From contig NW_021836542.1 of assembly GCF_006345805.1 (NCBI RefSeq), forward strand, positions 1 through 23,727: DNA of 23,727 nucleotides. The letters are read 5' to 3'. Numbering within the stretch: position 1 is the first letter of the stretch; the number at the start of each line of letters is the position of its first letter. Positions 5,804 to 18,371 of this stretch are shown here, piece after piece. The translations under genes and the position numbers were made by a program. Below the pieces are notes generated by a model. The model was not told the origin of the DNA and searched no databases. It saw only the letters and a list, made by a program, of their open reading frames with translations. This DNA is from Octopus sinensis (Eukaryota).

Positions 5804-6072
5804 AAATGCTGATAGGTTGATAGATAGACACATAGATTGATAAGTAGGGAAGAAGAAATGATGCAAAAATTATTTCAACTGTTACTATATCATTTGTATC
5901 TCAGGGAAATAGAGGGGGGTTTGACACACACACACACACACGGACGTCTACGTGTGTTGTATATATATATGTATATGTGGGTGTGTCTGTGTGTGAGTGT
6001 GTGCATACGTATATCTATACACAAATATACATAGATAGATAAATACATACACACACACATATATTCTTACAT

Positions 6073-6242
6073 GCTTCCCTTCTCTGAATCTTTCATTTTC
6101 CTATGTTTCTGACGAAGAGCTCCGCTCGAAACGTAAAACTATCCTTCTTCCCTTCCTTCCTGGACGTCCAATAATACTATATTTGTTCCACGTCCTCGCG
6201 TTGTTTTGTTTTCTCTTGGTGGTTTCATGTTTGGATTAACTT
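6073..6242 (+). mobile_element. 170-bp hammerhead-bearing insertion (Penelope-like pLTR or retrozyme-like monomer) with a 13-bp TSD
   Basis: TATATTCTTACAT at 6060-6072 and 6243-6255 brackets a unit containing an HHR core and a T-rich tail. Confidence 0.8.
6105..6139 (+). ncRNA. Minimal type I hammerhead ribozyme
   Basis: Stem I GTTT(6105-08)/AAAC(6136-39); core CTGACGA 6109-15; extra A; stem II GAGC-TCC-GCTC; GAAAC 6128-32; GTA triplet 6133-35; loopless ACGT stem III. Confidence 0.8.
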
Positions 6243-6317
6243 TATATTCTTACATACATACATAATACATATATACATACATACATACGTACATACATAC
6301 ACGCATACATACTTAGG

Positions 6318-6685
6318 CATTGATGCAGTACCAGGCAGTGGCTCTCATGGTTGCTGATCTTAACTGATTGGAAGTGTTATCATGTAAATTATTTTGTCTT
6401 GGTGCAAAAGATGGGCTACAGCAAATATTCTGCTCAATACCACAGATTTGCTTGTCAGTTGTTTGATCTTAACCAGTCGATCATGTCCCTTAGTGGCTGA
6501 CGATATGTGCATCTCTGATCATGAGCAGAAGTAGTGGAGGAGCATCATAACCATGTGTTGAGAGGAATTCTTTGGGATTTGAATACACCTCTGGAAACAT
6601 GGGTGTTTTGTTCATCCTCCTTAAACAACTCTTATTCAGGGACCTTTTGATCGGGATGGGTTACTTGATTCTGCCAGTACCCCGT
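6318..6685. mobile_element. Probable interspersed repeat, class unknown
   Basis: Complex block next to (CATA)n that I recall as an abundant Octopus repeat. There is no second copy in the window to confirm it. Confidence 0.45.
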
Positions 6686-17700: not shown

Positions 17701-18030
17701 AGCTTTAGCCATTTTCAGATTTAGGTACCATCGACCCCTTTATCTTGATATAAAGGATACTATATCAGACAAAAAACAAAGGTAACACGGGCGGCACTTA
17801 AAAGTTGAAGGTTGATGTCGGGTAGAAATAATGCAAACCAATGTATTGCTGACATTCTAAAGTCTCTGATGGATTCTATGATGAATTTATTATCGAACTA
17901 GCACGCGCGCACACAGACACATACATTTATTTAAAGTAATCATTTATATTTTATCCTTTGTCTTTTCCTAATATTTGTCTTTTGTTGTGTTCTTTCTGTC
18001 TTACCCTTGATTTATATATATATATATAAT

Positions 18031-18371
18031 ACAGTTCTATATTTAAGAGAAGAGGAATTATGTACATTATTTATATTATTTACATTATGTGCATTCGACG
18101 GATATTTGTCCTCATCTTGTTTGTTGTTAACACAACGTTTCGGCTGATATACCGTCCAGCCTTCTTCAGGTGTCGGAGAAATTTCGAACCTGGGTTCTCA
18201 TTCCTAAGGTATTTTTCGATGTTGTCGTTGTTATTATTTTTATTAATATTATTATTATCATTATTATTATTATTATTATTATTTTATTATTATTATTATT
18301 ATTATTATTGCTGTTGTTGTTGTTGCTGTTGTTTTTGTTCAGGTCACTGCTTGGAATCGAACTCGGAATCT
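18031..18371 (-). mobile_element. B-box plus hammerhead unit, left arm of the palindrome
   Basis: Minus strand order: GTTCGATTCC (18353-62), (CAA)n(TAA)n, HHR (18129-74), then an AT-rich tail ending at (TA)n. Confidence 0.8.
18129..18174 (-). ncRNA. Minimal type I hammerhead ribozyme
   Basis: Minus strand: GACAC-CTGAAGA-A-GGCTG-GACGGTATAT-CAGCC-GAAAC-GTT-GTGTT. It has a 5-bp stem I, a 5-bp stem II, a palindromic AACGTT stem III and a GUU triplet. Confidence 0.82.

What the first reader, a model, noticed from the sequence alone, without database searches (positions are those of the whole stretch)
6060..6255. Discrete 170-bp mobile unit carrying an intact minimal hammerhead ribozyme, flanked by a perfect 13-bp TSD
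Seen: TATATTCTTACAT flanks 6073-6242. Inside is GTTT-CTGACGA-A-GAGC-TCC-GCTC-GAAAC-GTA-AAAC, with all conserved HHR core bases, an extra A after A9 and a loopless ACGT stem III. Known: minimal type I HHRs with a palindromic stem III occur in Penelope-like element pLTRs and metazoan non-LTR retrozymes, and they cleave mainly as dimers. Inference: this is a non-coding, ribozyme-bearing retroelement monomer mobilised in trans, with predicted cleavage after A6135.
Basis: partly seen in the sequence, partly recalled or inferred. Interest (0 to 1): 0.8.

Follow-up and report, generated by a model that had tools for sequence, protein, structure and literature searches.

The report
Clipped tail of Penelope-like jumping gene
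The hammerhead ribozyme motif and the 13-base target duplication are really there, but the stretch is a clipped tail copy of a very abundant Penelope-like jumping gene whose longer copies carry their own copying enzymes, a known kind of element, and this lone copy is likely inert.

Summary
Observation confirmed: a 13-bp direct repeat (6060-6072, 6243-6255) flanks a letter-perfect minimal hammerhead (6105-6139; predicted cut after 6135). The 170 bp is not a discrete unit. The family has at least 5,740 copies with a fixed 3' end at (TA)n and variable 5' ends. Long copies run on through a CA-rich 3' UTR into a GIY-YIG endonuclease and reverse transcriptase with a Neptune/Nematis-type zinc linker: 31 of 39 endonuclease-picked loci carry this unit downstream. 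One locus shows pLTR-ORF-pLTR. So the window holds a 5'-clipped pLTR tip of a Penelope-like element; such hammerheads were described in 2014. Earlier scan notes report the same kind in other genomes. One extra: 82 of 98 copies begin in a 37-nt zone ending about 119 nt upstream of the hammerhead cut site, and only one begins at the cut. This suggests run-off copying of uncut RNA primed internally at UAUAUA, rather than retrozyme circles. Cleavage is untested; 75 of 112 family copies carry a U4C core variant. A second, unrelated hammerhead lies in a tRNA-like SINE at about 18022-18238. Interest is low to modest.

The parts
6060..6072 (+). Left copy of 13-bp target-site duplication
   Evidence: unique pair in window, 0 hits in 1.18 Mb of other loci
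6073..6073 (+). One base (G) that is not family sequence (relatives have T): untemplated or mutated
6074..6242 (+). 5'-clipped pLTR (3' terminus) of a Neptune/Nematis-type Penelope-like element; starts about 62 nt before the cut site, where most copies start 83-119 nt before it
6105..6108 (+). Hammerhead stem I, 5' strand (GUUU)
   Evidence: pairing kept by different letters in sister families
6109..6116 (+). Core C3-A9 (CUGACGA) plus extra A between 9 and 10.1
   Evidence: extra nucleotide is a min-HHR trait in PMC4209133
6117..6127 (+). Stem II, 4 bp with 3-nt loop, G10.1-C11.1 closing pair
6128..6135 (+). G12-A15.1, palindromic ACGU (loopless stem III, dimer-type) and N17 = A; predicted cut after 6135
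   Evidence: cleavage not tested
6136..6139 (+). Hammerhead stem I, 3' strand (AAAC)
6232..6242 (+). Fixed family 3' end (GGATTAAC+TT); in tandem copies it continues as TATATACCGCACGC into the element's 5' end
6243..6255 (+). Right copy of the target-site duplication; its first 5 bases (TATAT) equal the next 5 bases of the element's template, a likely priming microhomology
   Evidence: priming role inferred

Best explanation
The stretch is a 5'-clipped copy of the 3' terminal repeat (pLTR) of a Neptune/Nematis-type Penelope-like retroelement, likely written into a TA-rich site by that element's own endonuclease and reverse transcriptase from an uncut RNA. Shown: sequence continuity with RT and GIY-YIG reading frames in long copies; the pLTR-TATATA-5' end-ORF-3' UTR-pLTR layout; a fixed 3' end at (TA)n; 5' ends that pile up 83-119 nt upstream of the hammerhead cut site. 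Inferred: (1) a transcript starts inside the pLTR near that pile-up (TCATTC/TCTTTC); (2) the GIY-YIG domain nicks a (TA)n-like target, and the freed 3' end pairs with UAUAU just behind the pLTR end; (3) RT copies backwards through the uncut hammerhead. Priming at the first UAUAUA would run off at the RNA 5' end and give the modal ~210-bp solo copies; priming at the downstream one would give the long copies; (4) this copy stopped early, at about -62, and a staggered second nick gave the 13-bp duplication. The hammerhead would cut only as a dimer or with protein help; this solo, diverged copy is likely inert. That it is a pLTR fragment of a Penelope-like element: about 0.95. The confidence given is for the whole mechanism.
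For: 31 of 39 loci picked by the endonuclease alone (32 of 40 with the seed L092) have the unit 0.5-3.4 kb downstream on the same strand. L155 shows pLTR-ORF-pLTR; a 904-aa PLE-type homologue aligns over residues 179-898 there at 50-57%. DKG, CSRSRCNTC linker and CCHH GIY-YIG are visible. 28 exact pLTR-to-5'-end junctions, control 0. The window's subfamily (N17=A) has an endonuclease-linked copy, L348, 97% like L002 and 93% like the window copy. 82 of 98 copies picked by a 3' 24-mer start at -119..-83, 10 are shorter and 6 longer; the stop rate per base rises about 80-fold in that zone. Only L278 starts at about the cut site. 76 of 90 mapped 3' ends are followed by TA-type sequence. Short and endonuclease-linked copies share variants and clades (21 label changes vs 25.8 shuffled). 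Precedent: internal RT initiation, uncut RNA as main substrate and a protein-assisted HHR in anole Poseidon (PMC11167929); Penelope promoter inside the pLTR (PMC2377424 passages).
Against: No transcription start was measured; the sequencing runs were contigs only. The pile-up could reflect an RT stall or joining to TA flanks by microhomology. No excess of a cap-derived G was seen (by eye). Several tandem copies have upstream pLTRs longer than the pile-up (L201, L204, L216, L218, L228), which needs read-through, circular or jumped templates as well. The tree shows slight clustering of labels (8 of 1000 shuffles as low), so solo-copy masters are not excluded. No unbroken ORF was found among the 40 loci, and L348 holds only the last ~240 nt of the ORF. 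Informative duplications are rare in the family: 4 of 86 vs 1.3 shuffled, 12 of 300 shuffles as high. In anole Poseidon, initiation was not homologous to the target, unlike step (2). Pfam GIY-YIG and RVT_1 scores on the fragments are below cut-off.
Confidence: 0.6

Rival explanations
1. Solo ~210-bp pLTR copies act as their own SINE-like masters: each carries the promoter and gains a (TA)n tail from its target, is transcribed, and is copied in trans by the Penelope-like protein. The window copy is a truncated offspring of such a master. This is the closest version of the first reader's idea.
For: Short copies vastly outnumber long ones (92 of 98 start at or 3' of -119). The window's subfamily is tight and star-like (98.6% nearest-neighbour identity). 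Slight label clustering on the tree. Non-autonomous pLTR-like PLE derivatives are described (Chlamys MRC1, PMC8557442 passage; bioRxiv 10.64898/2026.07.22.740005).
Against: Most clades of short copies also hold endonuclease-linked copies; nearest-neighbour identity short-to-linked is 0.956 vs short-to-short 0.961. The window's subfamily has long copies, L347/L348.
Confidence: 0.25
2. All copies come from full-length RNA primed at the downstream pLTR, and the 5' pile-up is only a reverse-transcriptase stall or a microhomology join to TA flanks near ATTCAAAATG/ATATGTG, with no link to a transcription start.
For: Many 5' junctions fall on A/T letters shared with the flank; 5' truncation is the norm for PLE insertions.
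Against: The CA/TA-rich 3' UTR just upstream offers far more microhomology, yet only 6 of 98 copies reach beyond -119. Two of four copies of a diverged sister family also start at the matching place (L299, L300).
Confidence: 0.12
3. A non-LTR retrozyme monomer: hammerhead cleavage of tandem repeats yields a small circle that is reverse-transcribed and inserted.
For: Type I hammerhead, size range and TSD fit loosely (PMC7229834 passages); 11 of 28 junction loci are short pLTR-5'UTR-pLTR composites with two hammerhead regions.
Against: No tandem arrays of the unit were seen (one head-to-tail neighbour among 98, L242). The unit is contiguous with an ORF in long copies. Ends are fixed at TTAAC, not permuted or at the cut site. 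The 11 composites each have a different jump point. The hammerhead is of the minimal, not the canonical, type.
Confidence: 0.03

Closest known systems
Minimal hammerheads (min-HHR) in pLTRs of metazoan Penelope-like elements (Cervera & De la Pena 2014, PMC4209133; parts 1-2 of 4 read)
   Same: Type I core, extra nucleotide between 9 and 10.1, G10.1-C11.1 pair, palindromic 15.2-16.2, short helix I, mostly single dispersed motifs ascribed to truncated PLEs.
   Different: Helix II is 4 bp with a 3-nt loop, not the 7-8 bp described for Schistosoma families; 75 of 112 family copies carry U4C; no mention of this family in the parts read.
Neptune (or Nematis) clade of EN+ Penelope-like elements (features from Craig et al. 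2021, PMC8557442 passages)
   Same: RT then C-terminal GIY-YIG, CX2-5CxxC linker, CCHH motif, DKG motif, pLTRs, tandem and inverted partial copies, (TA)n targets.
   Different: Long CA-rich 3' UTR of variable length (unit lies 0.5-3.4 kb past the endonuclease); strong modal ~210-bp solo copy. Neptune versus Nematis was not resolved by a tree.
Poseidon from Anolis carolinensis (Frangieh et al. 2024, PMC11167929; parts 1-2 of 4 read)
   Same: Fixed insertion end set by internal RT initiation, AT-rich targets, hammerhead intact in copies and not needed for insertion.
   Different: There the start site lies inside the ORF and is not homologous to the target; here the fixed end is followed in the template by UAUAUA, which matches the target, and lies upstream of the ORF.
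Metazoan non-LTR retrozymes (PMC7229834 passages; bioRxiv 10.64898/2026.07.22.740005, parts 1-3 of 5 read)
   Same: Short type I HHR-bearing repeats related to PLE pLTRs.
   Different: Those are tandem arrays with an HHR in each unit, processed to circles; this family is dispersed, has fixed 3' ends and is contiguous with its ORF.

Membership tests
EN+ Penelope-like element | RT followed by C-terminal GIY-YIG endonuclease, contiguous with the terminal repeat | tested here: met
   In long copies, not in the window (tblastn of window empty).; Pfam hits on fragments are below cut-off
EN+ Penelope-like element | Single unbroken ORF | tested here: inconclusive
   All 40 loci are broken or truncated; pieces align colinearly to one 904-aa homologue
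EN+ Penelope-like element | Partial-tandem pLTR layout | tested here: met
   L155; 28 exact junctions
EN+ Penelope-like element | Inverted 5'-truncated neighbours | tested here: met
   L157, L158; L202, L203, L209, L219, L225
Neptune/Nematis clades | CX2-5CxxC linker before GIY-YIG, CCHH motif, DKG motif | tested here: met
   CSRSRCNTC, YCIKCNxCG..YIG..H..H, KPADKGG; criteria from PMC8557442
Neptune/Nematis clades | (TA)n target bias | tested here: met
   76 of 90 mapped 3' ends followed by TA-type sequence; part of it may be template-derived
Neptune clade proper | RT phylogeny groups with Neptune references | not tested
   No labelled reference sequences were held
min-HHR of PLEs | Conserved core, extra base after A9, G10.1-C11.1, palindromic stem III | tested here: met
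   against PMC4209133
min-HHR of PLEs | Stems kept by covariation while sequence differs between families | tested here: met
   Stem I GUUU/AAAC, CUUU/AAAG, GACAC/GUGUU; stem II GAGC/GCUC, GGCUG/CAGCC; three families, read by eye
min-HHR of PLEs | Self-cleavage as dimer or with protein help | not testable with these tools
   Needs in vitro assay
Rfam hammerhead families | Covariance-model match | tested here: not met
   No hammerhead hit at E<=10
Non-LTR retrozyme | Tandem array with an HHR in at least two consecutive units | tested here: not met
   Window copy is solo; one head-to-tail neighbour among 98 copies
Non-LTR retrozyme | Non-coding unit separate from an ORF | tested here: not met
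   31 of 39 endonuclease-picked loci end in this unit
Non-LTR retrozyme | Circular RNA monomer | not testable with these tools
   Only contigs were available

The most novel reading that the evidence does not exclude
The thousands of ~210-bp solo copies are a genomic record of strong-stop-like cDNAs. A Neptune-type Penelope element primes reverse transcription inside its own RNA at a UAUAUA patch that pairs with the (TA)n target, much as Athena elements pair with telomeres, and runs off at a transcription start in the upstream pLTR. That would explain at once the (TA)n targeting, the fixed 3' end, the flood of solo hammerheads and how pLTRs are regenerated, and it shows the hammerhead is uncut in the templates used.
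Probability: 0.4. Interest if true: 0.55.

Novelty: new member of a known kind. Interest (0 to 1): 0.27.

Why it matters
The locus itself is an ordinary dead retroelement fragment. The family is useful because its size turns insertion ends into a statistical readout of Penelope-like element mechanism, which is poorly known: where reverse transcription starts, whether the hammerhead is cut, and how pLTRs are remade. It names a testable transcription start and priming site, and offers natural core variants (U4/A17 in the window's subfamily, C4/U17 in the majority) for ribozyme assays.

Tried and rejected
Rfam: no hammerhead model matches. An 86-nt DNA search of the 5' part returned nothing, because common words are skipped; patterns were used instead. 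L031 looked like a PLE inversion, but its flanks are mirrored too, so it is a fold-back duplication or assembly artefact. Cap-derived G at 5' junctions: no clear excess among 100 listed matches (by eye; that pattern's first letter W excludes most long copies, so it was not used for length statistics). Peak of 5' ends at the cut site: 1 of 98 and 21 exact TA-flanked matches genome-wide (17 of 20 checked are real short copies). No neighbouring-position control was run and a rough background estimate is of the same size, so there is no clear excess. Family-wide TSD test is weak because (TA)n hides duplications. Within-family core conservation: non-CpG rare-variant rate 0.012 in the core vs 0.024 in flanks and 0.032 in stems (112 copies); flank alignment noise may inflate this, and dead copies decay neutrally, so it is weak evidence. 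Copy-number estimates of about 25,000-34,000 assume independent markers, which subfamily structure violates. Sequencing runs: no RNA holder listed; laying four contig runs showed the family under three organism labels but no empty site, since the repeat flanks were skipped. ARAGORN and Rfam call no tRNA in the second hammerhead family. Rows dropped: L245 (duplicate flanks of L244) and L275 (no anchored alignment) from the 100-copy set; L245 stayed in the tree; one Pfam RVT_1 hit (L148:3668-5203) belongs to an unrelated LINE. Literature searches found no paper describing this family's hammerhead; Repbase and the supplements of PMC8557442, PMC4209133 and PMC13282606 were not read and may already list it.

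Full report
1. Observation. The 13-mer at 6060-6072 and 6243-6255 occurs nowhere else in the window and 0 times in 1.18 Mb of other loci. The hammerhead has stem I GUUU/AAAC (6105-6108/6136-6139), core CUGACGA (6109-6115), an extra A, stem II GAGC/GCUC with a 3-nt loop, GAAA, a loopless ACGU and N17 = A6135. A descriptor finds 2 such motifs in the window and 0.0 on average in 300 Markov resamples. Rfam has no hammerhead hit at E<=10. In this copy the predicted fold sequesters both stems (8.9 kcal/mol penalty; 2.6-4.6 in three other copies).

2. It is a high-copy family, and 170 bp is not its unit. The window is a whole small contig of a 2.72-Gb animal genome; an octopus-like host is my guess from recall and was not tested. 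The best relatives are 94-95% identical, share the 3' end GGATTAAC followed by (TA)n and extend further 5'. Exact counts: 2,742 for the 26-nt hammerhead, 5,740 for a 3' 24-mer, 7,781 vs 225 control for a loose hammerhead pattern. Rough capture-recapture gives 25,000-34,000 copies, probably inflated by subfamily structure.

3. The parent element. Walking 5' from longer copies leads through a CA-rich 3' UTR to a GIY-YIG endonuclease and RT. Of 40 loci picked by the endonuclease DNA, 32 have the unit 0.5-3.4 kb downstream on the same strand (31 of 39 without the seed); 8 do not, one of which ends at a contig end. L155 reads pLTR, TATATA, 5' end, ORF, 3' UTR, pLTR, (TA)n. The reading frames show KPADKGG, YIDD, the linker CSRSRCNTC and a CCHH-type GIY-YIG, which passages of PMC8557442 assign to Neptune/Nematis-type elements. 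Pfam scores on the fragments are below cut-off, but full-length homologues reach E 1e-62 at 41-43%, and one aligns over residues 179-898 in L155. No unbroken ORF was found. The window's subfamily (U4, A17; 27 of 30 nearest copies have A17) has an endonuclease-linked copy, L348. The window itself encodes no such protein.

4. End statistics. From the first 100 matches of the 3' 24-mer, which is blind to the hammerhead, 98 were mapped (L245 and L275 dropped). 82 start at -119..-83 from the cut site, 10 are shorter and 6 longer; the stop rate per base rises about 80-fold in that zone. The furthest common start is at TCATTC/TCTTTC; an initiator-like reading of it is recalled, not tested. One copy starts at about the cut site; 21 exact TA-flanked cut-site starts exist genome-wide, with no clear excess. 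76 of 90 mapped 3' ends are followed by TA-type sequence. In 28 tandem junctions the element continues as T(T/A)TATATACCGCACGC, so the RNA carries UAUAUA right behind the fixed end, and the window's duplication begins with the same TATAT. Informative duplications are few (4 of 86 vs 1.3 shuffled; 12 of 300 shuffles as high). Short and endonuclease-linked copies are intermixed on a tree with slight clustering (21 changes vs 25.8, 8 of 1000).

5. The ribozyme across the family. In 112 hammerhead-blind copies, 75 have U4C and 110 have U17. A passage of PMC3088659 says U4C lowers activity in vitro yet suffices for viroid infectivity. Across three families the core is kept while stems change in compensating ways; one family has A6U. 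PMC4209133 reports no monomer cleavage and low dimer cleavage for a min-HHR. PMC11167929 reports protein-assisted cleavage that is dispensable for insertion.

6. Mechanism. Best reading (0.6): target-primed reverse transcription by the parent's enzymes, primed by pairing of a nicked TA target with the internal UAUAUA, copying through an uncut hammerhead. Run-off at a pLTR transcription start gives the modal ~210-bp solos; the window copy stopped earlier. Structure and end statistics are shown; start site, pairing and cleavage behaviour are inferred. Against it: some upstream pLTRs exceed the pile-up, no cap signature was seen, and no RNA evidence was available. Rivals: solo copies as SINE-like masters in trans (0.25), stall or microhomology only (0.12), retrozyme circle (0.03). 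The first three all make the locus a pLTR fragment of a Penelope-like element.

7. Known versus new. Minimal hammerheads in pLTRs, and their dispersal as single motifs of truncated elements, are in print since 2014; the link between retrozymes and pLTRs is in a 2026 preprint. Searches found no description of this family's ribozyme or of a 5' pile-up of solo pLTRs; Repbase and supplements were not seen. Papers: parts read for PMC4209133, PMC11167929 and the preprint; passages only for PMC8557442, PMC7229834, PMC2377424, PMC3088659 and PMC13282606. Four earlier scan notes from other genomes report the same kind; none matched this sequence. Verdict: new member of a known kind, interest 0.27.

Noticed in passing
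It sits near the 3' end of a SINE-like repeat with a tRNA-like head (A/B-box-like motifs by eye, consensus recalled; not called by ARAGORN or Rfam) and an (AAT)n middle. 2,137 exact matches to a 35-nt pattern, control 0. Two copies lie head to head here, the + one with a decayed core. A tRNA-headed SINE with a PLE-type hammerhead could be a Penelope-dependent SINE; its partner was not searched for.
   Followed up: partly
L205, L207, L208, L211-L213, L215, L217, L223, L225, L226: 11 of 28 junction loci are short pLTR-5'UTR piece-pLTR composites, each with a different jump point; they place two hammerhead regions a few hundred bases apart and could be raw material for retrozymes.
   Followed up: partly
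L013, L018, L065 and others: A further family with an A6U core variant (CUGU.GA), stem I CUUU/AAAG and a 4-nt loop II, also in (TA)n.
   Followed up: no
L299, L300, L301, L303, L305: Diverged sister family (CUGAAGA, loop UUU) with similar 5' start and 3' end at (TA)n.
   Followed up: partly
L134, L160, L166 and L149, L162: Other hammerhead-like motifs with short stem II or different stem III seen in a generic scan.
   Followed up: no
L031:3600-4600 (G000 C7, about 109.038 Mb): Mirror duplication of element and flank, probably a fold-back assembly artefact.
   Followed up: partly
window 6316-6420 and beyond; 1658-1881/7165-7388; 15126-15296/19696-19823/23037-23207: Other high-copy dispersed repeats, likely SINEs: one directly right of the insertion, others as inverted pairs at 90-92%.
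   Followed up: no
G000 C18, about 3.7-5.8 Mb: Cluster of long family copies on one contig region, perhaps inside a larger duplicated unit.
   Followed up: no
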